Source: an uncultured Clostridia bacterium
GTDB lineage: Bacteria > Bacillota > Clostridia > Christensenellales > Borkfalkiaceae
Assembly: GCA_965120435.1 (NCBI GenBank)
Contig: CBCPNE010000107.1
Coordinates: 1-28,290, forward strand
Direction of reading: 5' to 3'
Length of the DNA: 28,290 bases
Part shown: positions 1,429 through 5,598 of the stretch, one piece after another
How positions within the stretch are numbered: position 1 is the stretch's first letter
Layout: each line of letters opens with the position of its first letter
Made by a program: the position numbers and the translations under genes
Notes under the pieces: generated by a model
Told to the model about the DNA's origin: nothing
What the model saw: the letters and a program-made list of their open reading frames with translations, nothing else
Databases searched by the model: none

Positions 1429-1466
1429 AAACGCCTCCGCGGCAGCCGCCGCGGAGGCGTTTTTTT
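1429..1466 (+). terminator. Intrinsic terminator after glyQS, probably bidirectional
   Basis: 15-bp stem aaacgcctccgcggc/gccgcggaggcgttt with a 4-nt loop and a T7 tract, lying between convergent genes. Confidence 0.9.
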
Positions 1467-1470
1467 AAAC

Positions 1471-1505
1471 AGGGCGGCACATATGCCGCAAATAACGCGA
1501 TTTTT
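1471..1505 (+). repeat. Short intergenic repeat element, copy A
   Basis: agggcggcacatatgccgcaaataacgcgattttt; similar to the minus-strand sequences at 9607-9638 and 27255-27289. Confidence 0.55.
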
Positions 1506-2566
1506 TATACGTCTTCATCGTTCTCAAGGTATGACCTTACTATGGACTTGCCGAGCTTTTTGCCTATTTTCATAAGCCTGCTTTTGAGCGTGCGAACGGG
1601 CTTCTGCCTCTCTTCAAGACTGCCGCCGAGTTCCATTGATTTTGTGGGGTTGTGAATGACGTACCCGCACTCCTCCGCGTATTCAAACACGCTCTTGAAT
1701 ATGCCTTCTGCAATCTCCCTCAGGGATTCGGGAACGGCTTCTGTGACCGAATATATATCCGAAGCGTCTATATTTGTTATGCGCTCCTTTCCGAGCAGCG
1801 GTATGAGATAGATGTCTATACAGCTGTTTATTTCATCTATGTACTTAGGCGAAATTTTGCTGGTGGAGCGGCGCTCTCCGCTGCCGCTGCGGACCAGCCC
1901 GTACCACTCCATTACCACGGCCGAAAAGCGCGCCCTGCCCTTTGCGGGAGAGATTGCCCAGCGGGCAAGATTTGCAAACCCGCCGAAGAGCAGCGGTATG
2001 GCCTGGATAATAATCAGAATGATGGAGATTATTATGAGTACCGCCTTGAGGGCTATGGCGGCGGAACCGGCCGAGCCCGCGCTTATGGCAATGGCGATGA
2101 TGGCCATTGCGATTGAAATAATTCTTATGCAGAACCTGAATATTTTGAGCGCCTTGTTGTACTTTTTTACAGTCTTTGTGGTGACTTTGCCCGCAAGCAG
2201 CGTTGCAAGAATCAACAGCACGGCAAACACTGCGTACACGCCGAGCATACAGAATATAGCAATGCCCAGCCCGAACAGCTCTATCCAGTCGTTGATTACT
2301 GCATATACCGCGTAGGCTGTGTAGAACATCGTAAATATGAGGCTGCATATCAGCGAAAATATATTCAGTCTGCGGGCTATTACCGCGCGGTTTGCATATA
2401 TATTCTTGAAAAAACAGCGCAAATCGAACACGTCCTTTGCCAGCGTGAACGTCTCTTCAGCGGAAATGGTGTGGCGCACGACGTGTTCCTGCCTGTCCTC
2501 CGCCTCCGCCGCGGCAGCCTCTTCCTGCTGTTCGTTTTTTAATTGCTTTTTATCCCTTTCTGACAT
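1505..2566 (-). CDS. Membrane protein (~4 TM) with C-terminal tyrosine-recombinase core-binding (SAM-like) domain and no catalytic domain
   Basis: 353 aa with GAGGTG SD. Four hydrophobic segments lie in aa ~67-195. Residues ~213-310 (FSAVVMEW...YLIPLLGKERITNIDASDI...FKSVFEYAEECGYVIHNP) resemble the integrase N-terminal/CB pattern. Confidence 0.75.
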   Translation of the reverse strand: MSERDKKQLKNEQQEEAAAAEAEDRQEHVVRHTISAEETFTLAKDVFDLRCFFKNIYANRAVIARRLNIFSLICSLIFTMFYTAYAVYAVINDWIELFGLGIAIFCMLGVYAVFAVLLILATLLAGKVTTKTVKKYNKALKIFRFCIRIISIAMAIIAIAISAGSAGSAAIALKAVLIIISIILIIIQAIPLLFGGFANLARWAISPAKGRARFSAVVMEWYGLVRSGSGERRSTSKISPKYIDEINSCIDIYLIPLLGKERITNIDASDIYSVTEAVPESLREIAEGIFKSVFEYAEECGYVIHNPTKSMELGGSLEERQKPVRTLKSRLMKIGKKLGKSIVRSYLENDEDV

Positions 2567-2603
2567 AAATACACCTCACGGAATTGCGCAAAATATGCGC
2601 CCA

Positions 2604-4496
2604 TTATATTAGCTTTTCGTATTCGGAATACAGTTCTTCCTGTATCTTTTTCAGCTCTTCCAGTCTGCGGCAAAGCCTTTCAACCTCGCGGTAGTCTGCC
2701 GTAACTCCGGGGTCCGAAAGGCGGCTTTCTATTTCGCCTTCCTCAGTTTCGGCAGAGCTTATGTCCCTTTCCAGCTGCTTTATGCGCGCACGCGCGGCCG
2801 CCTCTTCGGCGCGCTGTCTGCGCGAACGGAAGGCATCTTTCCTGCCCTCTTCGTATTCGGCGCGCGCCCTCTTCTCCCTCTCCGCCTCTACCTCTGCGGC
2901 AAGACTGCGCTTGCCCTCGCGGTAGGCTTCGTAGCCGCCGTCATATACGCTGAGGCGGCCTCCCTCGATTTCGGCTATCCGCTCCGCTACGGCGGCTATG
3001 AAATATCTGTCGTGGCTGACGAAAAGCACGGTGCCCTCAAAATTTTTCAGCGCGCTCTCCAGACTTTCGCGGGCGGGGAGGTCGAGGTGGTTGGTGGGCT
3101 CGTCCAGAAGCAGAAGGTTGCCCTCTTCCGCCGCCAGCACGCACAGCGCGAGTTTGGCGCGCTCGCCGCCCGAAAGGTCGCCCACACGCTTGACGGCGTC
3201 CTCTGCGCAAAGTCCGCACCGCGCAAGGGCGGCGCGCATATCCGTCTGGGAAGAGGATACGTGCCTCTCCCACAGCTCTGCAAGTACGGTGTTGTTCATA
3301 TTGAGGTTGGAATTTTCCTGGTCGTAGAAGGCGGCGCGCACATACCTGCCGAGGCTCACCGCCCCGTCGCAGTTTTTGAATATATGCTTAAGAAGCGTAG
3401 ACTTGCCCGCTCCGTTTTCTCCGACGAGCGCAACCTTCTGCCCGCGCTTTACTGTGAGGCTGCCGCCCGTTACCAGCCGCTTGCCCCCCGCTTCGAGGTT
3501 GAGGTCTTTAACCTCTATGACGGTTTCTGCGGCGCGCTCTGAAAAGGTGAAGCCGAACCGCGGCGGAGCGGGCGGGACATACGGCTTTTCAAGTATTTCC
3601 ATTCTGTCAAGCTGCTTTACCCTGCTCTGGGCGGATTTTGCCGTGGTGGCGCGCGCTATGTTTCTGTCCACATAGTCCTGAAGGCGCGCCCTCTCCTCCT
3701 GCTGCCGCTCATATTCCTTAACCTCAAGGGCAACCCTTTCCGCCTTGAGCGCCTTGTACTTTGTATAGTTGCCGTGGTATGAATACAGCTTCTTATTCTC
3801 TATTTCAAGTATTCTTGCCGCCGTTCTGTCGAGGAAATACCTGTCGTGGGAGACGGTTATCACCGCGCCCTTGAATACGGACAGATAATCTTCCAGCCAG
3901 AAGAGCGTTTTAATGTCGAGGTGGTTGGTTGGCTCGTCCAGAATCAACAGGTCGGGTTCTTCCAGCAGCAGGCGGGCGAGCCTGAGCCTCGTCTTTTCCC
4001 CGCCCGACATTGTTGCGACTTTCTGTTCGTATGAGTCGGCAAAGCCCATTCCGCCCAGCACCGTCTTTACGCGCACTTCGGCATTGTAACAGTCGTGCGC
4101 GGCGATATACCTGTTCAGGCTTTCATACCTTGAAGAGAGCGCCGCATATTCCCTGCCGCCGTACTCCGCCGCGGAGAGCTTTTCAGAGAGGGCGGACAGC
4201 CGTTCTACCGCGTCGAGCTGCGGTTTTACCGCCTCAAGCGTCTGCGAATAGACCGTACCCTCGCCGTCAAGTCCGCCGCTCTGTTCAAGAAAACCTATGC
4301 GGGCGCCGCCCTTTACCTGAACAGAGCCGCCCTCCGCGGACAGTTTGCCGCACATTAAATTCAAAAGAGTGGTTTTGCCCGCTCCGTTTTCGCCTATCAG
4401 GCCTATGCGTTCGCCCTCGTTTACGGCAAACGTGACGTCTTTAAGTACGGCGCCGCCCTGATAGCCGAAGCTTACGCTGTTGAATGATACCAACAT
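2604..4496 (-). CDS. ABC-F family ATPase (ribosome-associated; no TM domains)
   Basis: 630 aa with two NBDs (GENGAGKTT and GENGAGKST; MSGGEK and LSGGER; LILDEPTNHLD twice; SHDRYF twice), the inter-ABC linker and a C-terminal coiled coil. Confidence 0.93.
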   Translation of the reverse strand: MLVSFNSVSFGYQGGAVLKDVTFAVNEGERIGLIGENGAGKTTLLNLMCGKLSAEGGSVQVKGGARIGFLEQSGGLDGEGTVYSQTLEAVKPQLDAVERLSALSEKLSAAEYGGREYAALSSRYESLNRYIAAHDCYNAEVRVKTVLGGMGFADSYEQKVATMSGGEKTRLRLARLLLEEPDLLILDEPTNHLDIKTLFWLEDYLSVFKGAVITVSHDRYFLDRTAARILEIENKKLYSYHGNYTKYKALKAERVALEVKEYERQQEERARLQDYVDRNIARATTAKSAQSRVKQLDRMEILEKPYVPPAPPRFGFTFSERAAETVIEVKDLNLEAGGKRLVTGGSLTVKRGQKVALVGENGAGKSTLLKHIFKNCDGAVSLGRYVRAAFYDQENSNLNMNNTVLAELWERHVSSSQTDMRAALARCGLCAEDAVKRVGDLSGGERAKLALCVLAAEEGNLLLLDEPTNHLDLPARESLESALKNFEGTVLFVSHDRYFIAAVAERIAEIEGGRLSVYDGGYEAYREGKRSLAAEVEAEREKRARAEYEEGRKDAFRSRRQRAEEAAARARIKQLERDISSAETEEGEIESRLSDPGVTADYREVERLCRRLEELKKIQEELYSEYEKLI

Positions 4497-4528: not shown

Positions 4529-5380
4529 TCAGTAGTCCCATACGGGAATAAAACTATGCTGCGCACTGTCCTTATCCTGAAGAAACACGTTTTCAAGGCC
4601 GGCGGCCTCAACCGCGGACAGCACGGCCTTATACTCCCTGGCAGTAATTCTGCGGCCGAGTTCGGGGACGCCGGCTATATCTCCGCAGGGCGTGTACTGG
4701 CTCATCAGACTGAAGTACACCGTGCGCGGCAGCGTGGCGACAAACTGCACCGCCTTTACCGAATCGGCCACGCACATAGGCATAATCAGGTGCCTCACTA
4801 TGCAGCCGGACAACATCCTGCCATCGCCGTCGAACGCGGCGGGCTTTTCCGCCATATAGCGGATTGCGGGCAGAGCGTAGTCGGCATAGTCGGCGCGCGC
4901 GGTGTACCTTGCAGAAAGCTCTTTGCTTATGAACTTCAGGTCGGGCAGCCATATATCGGTAAAAGCCGAGGCGAGTTCAAGCGTTTCAGGCTTTTCATAT
5001 CCGTGGGTGTTGTACACTACGGGGACGCCCGGTTTGTATATGGAAAATGCTTCCGCGATTTCCGCGCAGTAATGGGTAGGATTTACGAGATTGATATTGT
5101 CCGCCCCCATATCCTCCAGCTCCCTGAAAATATCCGCAAGCTGCGCGGCCGTTATCTCCCTGCCGCGCACCGCGCGCGAGACTTCATAGTTCTGGCAGAA
5201 CCTGCACTTCAGAGGGCAGCCGCAGAAAAATACGCAGCCGCTGCCGTTTCTGAAAGAGACGGGCGGCTCTTCATACGGGTGAAGATAGTACTTTGCAATT
5301 TTCAGCCCCTTTACAGAGCAGGCCCCCCGGCGCGAGGGCCTGTCTGCCCCGCAGGATACGGGACATTGTGTGCAACCCAT
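4529..5380 (-). CDS. Radical SAM protein, PflX-like (PFL-activating-enzyme related)
   Basis: N-terminal CTQCPVSC, radical SAM CPLKCRFC, NINLVNPTH, LPDLKF, IVRHLIMP, SLMSQYTP. Start placed at ATG 5380; the ORF-track extension to 5530 runs through promoters and the riboswitch. Confidence 0.85.
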   Translation of the reverse strand: MGCTQCPVSCGADRPSRRGACSVKGLKIAKYYLHPYEEPPVSFRNGSGCVFFCGCPLKCRFCQNYEVSRAVRGREITAAQLADIFRELEDMGADNINLVNPTHYCAEIAEAFSIYKPGVPVVYNTHGYEKPETLELASAFTDIWLPDLKFISKELSARYTARADYADYALPAIRYMAEKPAAFDGDGRMLSGCIVRHLIMPMCVADSVKAVQFVATLPRTVYFSLMSQYTPCGDIAGVPELGRRITAREYKAVLSAVEAAGLENVFLQDKDSAQHSFIPVWDY

Positions 5381-5386
5381 AGGTAT

Positions 5387-5415
5387 ATTATAGAATAAAA
5401 TTTTTAATAATGCAA
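5387..5415 (-). promoter_or_regulatory. SigA-type promoter for a leaderless radical SAM gene
   Basis: TTGCAT-17-TATAAT, then 6 nt, then ATG; no SD. Confidence 0.7.
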
Positions 5416-5433
5416 TTAAAGCGACGTTTTTAT

Positions 5434-5463
5434 TTGACAGCGCAGACAGCGCGGTGATATAAT
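5434..5463 (+). promoter_or_regulatory. SigA promoter for riboswitch-metK
   Basis: TTGACA-18-TATAAT with extended -10 TG, about 10 nt upstream of the riboswitch. Confidence 0.85.
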
Positions 5464-5472
5464 CAGCGTACA

Positions 5473-5598
5473 ACCTATAAAGAGTGTGCGAGAGAACGGC
5501 TCGATGACCACACAGCAACCTGCAGAGCAAGGTGCTAAGGCCGTACCGATGGGGTAAATAGATGGTAAATTTTGCTCCGCGGCTGCGGAGTTTTTTTT
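5473..5598 (+). ncRNA. SAM-I (S-box) riboswitch with terminator expression platform
   Basis: AAGAG, P2 gtgtg/cacac with kink-turn GA..GATGA, P2b gag/ctc, L2 ACGG pairing with CCGT (pseudoknot), GCAACC...GGTGC core, GATGG as P1 3' strand, terminator ctccgc-ggct-gcggag-T8. Directly upstream of metK. Confidence 0.9.

What the first reader, a model, noticed from the sequence alone, without database searches (positions are those of the whole stretch)
1505..2566. Membrane-anchored integrase core-binding domain with no catalytic domain
Seen: four hydrophobic helices (aa ~67-195), then aa ~213-310 (nt ~1637-1930) reading F.AVVMEW..., YLIPLLGKERITNIDASDI, FKSVFEYAEECGYVIHNP. The protein ends ~40 aa later in a basic amphipathic helix. 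Known: this pattern (F..v..eW; hi.P.lG...l..I...dI; iF.yAv..g.i..NP) is characteristic of the core-binding/SAM-like domain of tyrosine recombinases, which normally precedes an R-K-H-R-H/W-Y catalytic domain. No such domain or neighbouring integrase is present, and the gene has a good SD at the end of a housekeeping operon. Inference: a domesticated DNA-binding module tethered to the membrane, such as a chromosome anchor or one-component regulator. I do not recognise this architecture.
Basis: partly seen in the sequence, partly recalled or inferred. Interest (0 to 1): 0.72.

Follow-up and report, generated by a model that had tools for sequence, protein, structure and literature searches.

The report
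Membrane protein carrying orphan integrase domain
A gut Clostridia genus (Candidatus Coproplasma) keeps a small four-helix membrane protein whose cytoplasmic tail is the DNA-clamping front domain of a phage integrase with the enzyme half missing. The domain is real and under selection, but its surface has turned acidic, so its job is unknown and may no longer be DNA binding.

Summary
Observation confirmed. Window 1505-2566 (-) encodes a 353-aa protein with these parts:
- a variable acidic N-tail;
- a very conserved cytoplasmic helix;
- four TM helices (N-in/C-in, outside loops of 10 aa or less);
- an invariant RW-x-SP-x-K hinge;
- a phage-integrase core-binding (CB) domain, aa 213-310;
- an acidic linker and a +8 amphipathic helix.

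The CB assignment rests on Pfam PF22022 (28-30 bits, cut-off 27), a profile search of PDB sequences (top six hits all integrase CB domains) and AlphaFold plus VIA-align (Z 12.5, top 24 all tyrosine recombinases). There is no catalytic domain.

The fusion is not a relic. More than 300 full-length homologues were found, in 141 species-level genomes, with identity down to about 27%. dN/dS is about 0.1, and the gene is single-copy. It nearly always follows a radical-SAM gene and a Uup-like ABC-F gene.

The DNA-binding interpretation is only partly supported. The domain has net charge about -2, against +3.5 in 15 genuine integrases of the same order. An invariant Glu replaces their conserved Arg/Lys/His. 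No operator or sensor domain was found.

I read it as a non-catalytic membrane adaptor. The family is uncharacterised.

The scan earlier noted CB-only domains on giant CPR surface fibres, which have a different architecture.

The parts
1505..2566 (-). Whole CDS (353 aa plus stop), protein P0001
   Evidence: 333 homologues, nearly all full length. dN/dS 0.04-0.31 by region, so purifying selection.
2572..2577 (-). Shine-Dalgarno GAGGTG, 5 nt before the ATG
   Evidence: sequence read
2486..2566 (-). aa 1-27: variable acidic N-terminal tail (cytoplasmic)
   Evidence: net charge about -3.4, low conservation
2369..2485 (-). aa 28-66: most conserved segment (consensus VRHTISAEETFTLAKDVFD.RCFIKNVY.NRAVIARRLN), a cytoplasmic helix running into TM1
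   Evidence: column identity 0.8-0.9; dN/dS 0.04; helices 36-58 and 60-91 in the model
1973..2368 (-). aa 67-198: four transmembrane helices, predicted N-in/C-in, outside loops of about 6 and 10 aa
   Evidence: hydropathy and K+R counts: N-side 6, loop1 0, loop2 7, loop3 0, after TM4 4. AF2 helices. Only generic helical-bundle fold matches.
1931..1972 (-). aa 199-212: basic juxtamembrane hinge with W203 (invariant), P207 and K209 (R-W-x-x-S-P-x-K)
   Evidence: W203 is the only residue invariant across the most divergent members; net charge +3.7
1637..1930 (-). aa 213-310: integrase core-binding (Phage_int_M / SAM-like) domain, net acidic
   Evidence: homology and fold; charge inversion, E287
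1508..1636 (-). aa 311-353: acidic linker, then a strongly basic amphipathic helix (aa about 322-346, conserved G335/G339), then an acidic tail
   Evidence: helix charge +7.8 on average; hydrophobic moment 0.72; helix 327-348 in the model
1431..1460 (.). GC-rich hairpin between this gene and the convergent glyRS gene (shared terminator, stronger for glyRS)
   Evidence: sequence read
2604..4496 (-). Upstream co-oriented gene: ABC-F ATPase with C-terminal coiled-coil domain (Uup-like), 37 nt before this gene
   Evidence: Directly upstream in 75 of 80 species loci and in members of 27-35% identity.
4529..5380 (-). First gene of the operon: radical SAM protein with a leaderless-type promoter

Best explanation
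SHOWN. This is a real, single-copy, vertically inherited gene for an inner-membrane protein. It is confined to Candidatus Coproplasma and close kin (Christensenellales gut MAGs). Its parts are:
- a cytoplasmic N-terminal helix, the most conserved part;
- four TM helices with almost nothing outside the cell;
- an invariant Trp-containing hinge;
- a domain homologous to the core-binding (CB) domain of P4/lambda-type phage integrases;
- a +8 amphipathic C-terminal helix.
It has no catalytic domain, so it cannot recombine DNA. It is the last gene of a conserved operon (radical SAM, Uup-like ABC-F, this gene).

INFERRED. The CB fold was captured from an integrase and then re-surfaced. The basic residues of helices B and D became a conserved acidic and salt-bridged stripe (R283-E287-K291-E295-E299, D244/E245, D251), and new family-specific lysines appeared.

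I therefore think the protein most likely works as a non-enzymatic membrane adaptor. The anchor holds the re-surfaced CB domain and the conserved N-helix at the cytoplasmic face as a binding platform for a protein partner. The product of the co-transcribed ABC-F gene, or ribosomes, is the only candidate the context offers. The basic C-terminal helix and hinge would lie on anionic lipid or bind a nucleic acid non-specifically.
For: - CB homology and fold.
- No catalytic domain.
- Conserved fusion: 333 hits, nearly all full length; only 40 clusters at 50% identity in 1.84 billion proteins, and every complete one is TM+CB. Short hits are contig-edge fragments or one frameshifted copy.
- Distribution: 39 of 40 genomes of the genus. 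No full-length match in 184 genomes of 22 other genera of the family, where the few weak hits are integrases and one TM-only frame. 141 species loci.
- Purifying selection in every region, with CB dN/dS about 0.10.
- Cytoplasmic location of both ends by the positive-inside rule.
- Charge inversion: family -1.8 against integrases +3.5 over the same columns; invariant E287 against R/K/H.
- Operon link to ABC-F in 75 of 80 species and in members down to 27% identity, with 7-12 nt gaps.
- No conserved operator at the operon promoter.
Against: - Every characterised use of the CB fold binds DNA: recombinases, FliZ (PMC3367168), and MrpR/SroF among the fold hits.
- The family keeps conserved Lys/Arg at the N-termini of helices B and D (columns 33, 79) and after them (56-57, 87, 105). 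These could still contact a DNA backbone.
- FliZ itself has Glu at the lambda-N99-equivalent position yet binds DNA.
- Net charge is a crude proxy. I could not map residues on model coordinates.
- No partner is shown. ABC-F adjacency may be inherited synteny within one clade, and two members sit elsewhere (after recG; after a phosphoribosyltransferase).
Confidence: 0.4

Rival explanations
1. The CB domain still binds DNA, so the protein is a membrane-tethered DNA-binding protein: a nucleoid or chromosome anchor, or a membrane-bound transcription regulator. The basic C-terminal helix would add affinity.
For: - The CB fold is a DNA-binding module wherever it has been studied; the fold hits include lambda Int-DNA complexes, MrpR and SroF, and FliZ is a CB-only repressor (PMC3367168).
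- The whole C-terminal cytoplasmic part is net positive: hinge +3.7 and helix +7.8.
- Conserved K/R sit at helix N-termini.
- Both ends are predicted cytoplasmic.
Against: - The CB domain itself is net acidic (-1.8, range -7 to +2), against +3.5 in 15 integrases.
- Invariant E287 replaces a universally basic residue, and D/E sits at the lambda N99-aligned position.
- There is no extracytoplasmic sensing domain.
- No conserved repeat or operator lies near the operon promoter.
- A survey of transmembrane transcription regulators does not mention integrase-type domains.
Confidence: 0.3
2. The four-helix module is the missing membrane partner of the neighbouring ABC-F ATPase, forming a transporter or mechanotransducer of the FtsEX/MacB kind. 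The CB-like domain would be the coupling element.
For: Tight, conserved adjacency to ABC-F. Four TM helices with N-in/C-in topology, as in FtsX/MacB.
Against: The ABC-F gene has the inter-domain linker (ABC_tran_Xtn) and the C-terminal coiled coil of ribosome-binding ABC-F factors. From general knowledge, ABC-F proteins act on ribosomes, not with membrane domains. This protein has no extracellular domain. Other genera keep the radical SAM and ABC-F pair without it.
Confidence: 0.04
3. A decaying integrase remnant accidentally fused to a membrane ORF, or an assembly or annotation artefact, with no function.
For: The catalytic domain is missing. The Pfam score is only 1-3 bits over the cut-off.
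Against: Conserved full length in 141 species and down to 27% identity. dN/dS 0.04-0.13 in all structured regions. Conserved synteny. No recombinase remnant downstream. High-confidence fold.
Confidence: 0.02

Closest known systems
Core-binding (central, 'SAM-like') domain of P4/lambda-type tyrosine integrases (Pfam PF22022 Phage_int_M; PDB 2kj9, 2kd1, 2kj5, 2kj8, 2oxo/1z1b)
   Same: Homologous domain: same helical fold (VIA Z 10.7-12.5, rmsd 2.1-4.4 Å over 89-108 residues), same core motifs (W helix; hydrophobic-P-x-x-G; F-x-Y-A-x-x-x-G-x-hydrophobic-x-x-N-P), and the same interdomain-linker position after NP.
   Different: No arm-binding domain before it and no catalytic domain after it. It is attached to a 4-TM anchor. 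It is net acidic instead of basic, and the conserved Arg/Lys of helix D is an invariant Glu.
FliZ of Enterobacteria (PMC3367168)
   Same: A chromosomal protein that keeps only an integrase CB-like region, without the catalytic domain, and works non-enzymatically.
   Different: FliZ is soluble and 183 aa, is compared there with XerD-type CB domains, and is shown to bind DNA through a basic residue (R108) in helix 2. Here the protein is polytopic in the membrane and the equivalent helix carries Asp/Glu. No direct sequence comparison with FliZ was made here.
MrpR (SPbeta, PDB 8a0a) and SroF (phi3T, PDB 9rd5): recombinase-like repressors
   Same: Domesticated tyrosine-recombinase folds used for binding rather than recombination. 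Their CB domains are among the fold hits (Z 7.3 and 6.3).
   Different: They keep both domains, are soluble and phage-encoded, and bind DNA. This protein keeps only the CB domain and is a host core-genome membrane protein.
Transmembrane transcription regulators (ToxR, TcpP, CadC; PMC10269533)
   Same: The idea of a nucleic-acid-binding domain held at the cytoplasmic membrane.
   Different: From general knowledge these have an N-terminal winged-helix domain, one TM helix and a periplasmic sensor. Here there are four TM helices, no outside domain, and a C-terminal CB-type domain whose DNA binding is doubtful.
CB-only domains on giant membrane-anchored surface fibres of CPR bacteria
   Same: Recombinase CB domains without a catalytic domain on the cytoplasmic end of a membrane protein.
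   Different: Those are Xer-type tandem CB domains, with a single TM helix and thousands of extracellular residues, in a different phylum. No sequence relationship was tested.

Membership tests
Tyrosine recombinase / phage integrase (enzyme) | Catalytic domain (PF00589) with the R-K-H-R-H/W-Y active site | tested here: not met
   No PF00589 hit at E up to 10. Only 43 residues follow the CB domain, and the next feature is a terminator.
Tyrosine recombinase / phage integrase (enzyme) | Core-binding domain preceding the catalytic domain | tested here: met
   PF22022 at 28-30 bits, above the 27-bit cut-off. Profile against PDB sequences. Fold Z 12.5.
Pfam PF22022 Phage_int_M domain family | Score at or above the gathering threshold (27 bits) | tested here: met
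   28.0 bits (whole protein), 29.8 (tail), 30.2 (genome scan). Most homologues carry the precomputed hit.
Pfam PF22022 Phage_int_M domain family | Basic DNA-facing surface, as in genuine integrase CB domains | tested here: inconclusive
   Net charge -1.8 against +3.5, and E287 in place of R/K/H. However, residues could not be mapped on coordinates, and which positions touch DNA was not verified here.
FliZ-like CB-only DNA-binding regulators | Soluble protein with a CB-like region whose helix 2 carries the DNA-contacting basic residue | tested here: not met
   The protein has four TM helices. Helix 2 positions aligned with lambda I98/N99 are D244/E245. The alignment is only motif-anchored.
Transmembrane transcription regulators (ToxR/CadC type) | Extracytoplasmic sensor domain and a winged-helix DNA-binding domain | tested here: not met
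   Outside loops are about 6 and 10 aa. No wHTH or any other Pfam domain was found.
Transmembrane transcription regulators (ToxR/CadC type) | Binds a specific operator | not testable with these tools
   Only a negative look for conserved repeats at the operon promoter was possible.
ABC transporter membrane domain (FtsX/MacB-like partner of the neighbouring ATPase) | Recognisable permease family or fold | tested here: inconclusive
   No Pfam or NCBIfam match for aa 1-210. Fold search of the TM part gave only generic helical bundles.

The most novel reading that the evidence does not exclude
An integrase DNA-binding domain has been captured by a host membrane protein and converted, by charge inversion of its DNA-facing helices, into a protein-binding platform. 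This platform would tether the co-transcribed ABC-F translation factor, or ribosomes, to the membrane. It would be the first membrane partner of an ABC-F protein and the first non-DNA use of the recombinase CB fold.
Probability: 0.12. Interest if true: 0.75.

Novelty: new variant of a known kind. Interest (0 to 1): 0.45.

Why it matters
Non-enzymatic reuse of recombinase parts is known from only a few cases (FliZ, MrpR/SroF, kinetochore Ndc10), and all of them bind DNA. This family shows a clean, datable capture of just the core-binding domain by a polytopic membrane protein in one genus of uncultured gut Clostridia. After the capture, the residues that are basic in real integrases were systematically re-surfaced.

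If the domain still binds DNA, this would be a new type of membrane-DNA tether. If it does not, it would show how a DNA-binding fold is converted to another use.

In practice, the family has no Pfam or NCBIfam model for its whole length and is annotated only as 'hypothetical protein', with a stray integrase-domain hit that could be misread as a mobile-element marker. The limits on interest are that the family is narrow, the organism is uncultured, and no function is in hand.

Tried and rejected
- Complex prediction of the full-length protein with the neighbouring ABC-F returned 'no answer' (score 0.00). This is neither for nor against binding.
- NCBIfam gave nothing for the protein. Single-sequence phmmer against PDB gave only noise.
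- The fold search of the whole model found only generic helical bundles for the TM part (Z 9-10.5). That part remains unassigned.
- I looked for a conserved operator or repeat upstream of the operon in 76 species. Only the back-to-back -35/-10 boxes of the radical-SAM and metK promoters are conserved.
- I looked for the ancestral state downstream of ABC-F in 20 other genera of the family. There was no homologue. One genus has an unrelated SPFH/band-7-like protein there, recognised from its sequence only.
- Possible TM-only relatives lie in other families (237, 228 and 266 aa). Their scores of 20-35 bits fall over hydrophobic segments, they share no context, and I treat them as unproven.
- Apparent CB-only or TM-only short homologues are two contig-edge fragments and one frameshifted copy. 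They are not natural split forms.
- The two papers that would give the lambda Int CB-DNA contacts (PMC149183, PMC1809751) are not held, and a text search for R144/K141 found nothing. The claim that E287 replaces a DNA-contacting residue therefore stays an inference.
- Literature searches for this architecture and for Coproplasma found no description of the protein.

Full report
**1. What is there**

The minus-strand ORF 1505-2566 encodes 353 aa. A GAGGTG Shine-Dalgarno sits 5 nt before the ATG. The gene lies 37 nt downstream of a co-oriented ABC-F gene (2604-4496), which itself follows a radical-SAM gene (4529-5380). A GC-rich hairpin (1431-1460) separates the gene from the convergent glycyl-tRNA synthetase gene.

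**2. Anatomy**

The parts below come from a 32-sequence alignment, the AlphaFold2 model and simple hydropathy and charge counts.
- aa 1-27: a variable acidic tail.
- aa 28-66: the most conserved stretch of the protein (column identity 0.8-0.9), a helix that runs into TM1.
- aa 67-198: four hydrophobic helices.
- aa 199-212: a basic hinge, R-W-x-x-S-P-x-K.
- aa 213-310: the integrase-like domain.
- aa 311-321: an acidic linker.
- aa 322-346: a helix with mean charge +7.8, hydrophobic moment 0.72 and two nearly invariant glycines.
- Then a short acidic tail.

Lys+Arg counts are 6 before TM1, 0 in loop 1, 7 in loop 2, 0 in loop 3 and 4 after TM4. By the positive-inside rule both ends and the CB domain are therefore cytoplasmic. 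Only about 6 and 10 residues face outward.

**3. Is the domain really an integrase core-binding domain?**

Three independent lines say yes.
- Pfam PF22022 (Phage_int_M) is the only significant family. It scores 28.0 bits for the whole protein, 29.8 for the tail and 30.2 in a genome scan, against a gathering cut-off of 27. The same hit is precomputed for most homologues.
- A profile of 28 C-terminal domains was searched against all PDB sequences. Six of the seven hits are integrase CB domains and rank first (2kkv 7.6e-5, 2kj8 1.4e-4).
- The domain folds with pLDDT 90-96. Foldseek's top ~20 hits are integrase CB domains at probability 1.0. An exhaustive VIA-align search of 48,161 chains puts 24 tyrosine-recombinase CB domains on top (Z 12.5 to 5.6), clear of the first unrelated chain at 5.2.

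No catalytic domain exists. There is no PF00589 hit at E up to 10, and only 43 residues follow the NP motif. In this 88%-complete MAG the only PF00589 match is a 323-aa reading frame, Xer-sized, on another contig, and this gene is the only PF22022 match.

**4. Is the fusion real and conserved?**

- The word-indexed search found 333 homologues. Nearly all are 336-381 aa and cover more than 90% of the query.
- The exhaustive HMMER search of 1.84 billion representatives found only 40 clusters. Every complete member (326-423 aa) has both the TM part and the CB part, down to about 27% identity.
- The short hits are explained: two start at contig edges and one is a frameshifted copy.
- In GTDB representatives the gene is present in 39 of 40 genomes of the window's genus. 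No full-length copy was found in 184 genomes of 22 other genera of the same family. The weak hits there are ordinary 390-420-aa integrases matching only the CB columns.
- A pattern scan found 141 species-level genomes. These are named Candidatus Coproplasma, or deposited as uncultured Christensenella/Borkfalkiaceae/Clostridia MAGs, and come from chicken, mouse and rabbit gut.
- Pairwise dN/dS among orthologues is 0.04 (N-helix), 0.13 (TM), 0.08 (hinge), 0.10 (CB) and 0.12 (C-terminal part) (dS is near saturation, so the values are approximate).

A decaying relic or a chance fusion is excluded.

**5. Context**

In 75 of 80 species loci the ABC-F gene is directly upstream on the same strand. In 62 of them the full arrangement is kept: metK (divergent), radical SAM, ABC-F, this gene, glyRS (convergent). 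Members as distant as 27-35% identity keep radical SAM, ABC-F and this gene with 7-12 nt gaps. Two members sit elsewhere.

The ABC-F protein has the ABC_tran_Xtn linker and the C-terminal coiled-coil domain, so it is Uup-like. The radical-SAM gene is present in all 23 genera of the family, and several genera have ABC-F after it. None has a homologue of this protein downstream. The gene therefore looks like an invention of the Coproplasma lineage, added to the end of a pre-existing operon.

All this covers one clade, so the synteny counts are not independent observations.

**6. Does it still bind DNA?**

- Over the profile columns shared with genuine integrases, the family domain has net charge -1.8 (n=79, range -7 to +2). 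Fifteen integrases from genomes of the same order have +3.5 (range 0 to +7).
- The difference lies in the second half of the domain.
- Column by column, the family has an invariant Glu (E287) where 12 of the 15 profile-aligned integrases have Arg, Lys or His. In a motif-anchored alignment of eight of them with lambda Int, all have Arg or Lys there, R144 in lambda. The family also has Asp/Glu at the two helix-B positions aligned with lambda I98/N99.
- N99 is a known specificity determinant, and helix 2 is the DNA-contacting helix, according to the FliZ paper.
- On helix D the exposed i/i+4 stripe reads R283-E287-K291-E295-E299. That looks like a salt-bridge ladder rather than a DNA-reading face (inference).

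Against this:
- The family has its own conserved lysines and arginines at the N-termini of helices B and D and just after them.
- FliZ binds DNA with a Glu at the N99-equivalent position.
- The hinge and the C-terminal helix are strongly basic.

I could not map residues on coordinates, and I could not retrieve the lambda contact papers. No conserved operator-like repeat lies upstream of the operon. That region holds only back-to-back promoters and the metK SAM riboswitch.

**7. Most likely mechanism**

Shown: a non-catalytic, cytoplasm-facing, integrase-derived domain on a four-helix anchor, under selection and co-transcribed with an ABC-F factor.

Inferred (confidence 0.4): the re-surfaced CB domain and the ultra-conserved N-helix form a protein-binding platform at the membrane, and the basic C-helix and hinge rest on anionic lipid or nucleic acid.

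The rival reading is canonical DNA binding, as a chromosome anchor or membrane-bound regulator. It keeps 0.3. A transporter-partner reading (0.04) and a relic or artefact reading (0.02) are unlikely. A structure prediction of the protein with ABC-F gave no verdict and is not used either way.

**8. Comparison with the known**

The domain is a member of the integrase CB superfamily, but the protein is not a recombinase. The nearest functional precedents differ as follows.
- FliZ is CB-only, soluble and DNA-binding (PMC3367168).
- MrpR and SroF are two-domain, non-catalytic repressors, and both appear among the fold hits.
- ToxR-type transmembrane regulators have a different domain, one TM helix and a sensor. 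A survey of such regulators does not mention integrase-type domains.

Earlier notes of this scan describe CB-only domains on giant CPR surface fibres. That is a different architecture and phylum, and those notes are unchecked. No paper or curated family describes the present architecture.

**9. Verdict**

This is a new variant of a known kind: a domesticated recombinase CB domain in a new, membrane-bound, lineage-restricted architecture with an altered surface. Interest is moderate (0.45). It is a tidy case of domain capture with an open and testable functional question, but the family is narrow, the organism is uncultured and there is no functional evidence.

Noticed in passing
window 5472-5555 (+): SAM-I riboswitch (RF00162, 55.3 bits) in the leader of metK, preceded by a perfect TTGACA-18-TATAAT promoter at 5434-5463.
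   Followed up: partly
window about 5381-5463; loci L017-L096 upstream of the radical-SAM gene: Across dozens of species the radical-SAM gene keeps TTGCAT-17/18-TATAAT ending 6-7 nt before its ATG, with no SD, which is a leaderless-type arrangement. Its -35 box lies about 10 nt from the reverse-complemented -35 (TGTCAA) of the divergent metK promoter.
   Followed up: partly
L103:564-1277 (+), L104:37-723 (-), L105:515-1315 (+): Small 4-TM proteins (237, 228 and 266 aa) with Lys/Glu-rich tails, found in other Christensenellales families. They match only the TM part of the family profile (20-35 bits). They could be CB-less relatives of the anchor module or a composition artefact. Their neighbours are unrelated to each other.
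   Followed up: partly
L167:2501-3482: One metagenome scaffold carries a frameshifted copy of the gene (a 267-aa product plus an overlapping 76-aa ORF) in the normal position between ABC-F and glyRS.
   Followed up: no
G000 contig C78:2187-2666 (locus L110): The only tyrosine-recombinase catalytic domain found in this 1.04-Mb, 88%-complete MAG is a single 323-aa reading frame, Xer-sized. Many Firmicutes have two Xer proteins.
   Followed up: no
L117:3024-4013 (genus g22 of the same family): In one sister genus the slot after ABC-F is occupied by a 329-aa membrane-anchored protein that looks SPFH/band-7-like from its sequence and did not match the family profile. It is another membrane protein at the same operon end.
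   Followed up: no
window 1431-1460: A 12-bp GC-rich hairpin sits between this gene and glyRS. It is followed by T7 on the plus strand, so it is a good glyRS terminator, but only by TTAAAAATT on the minus strand.
   Followed up: no
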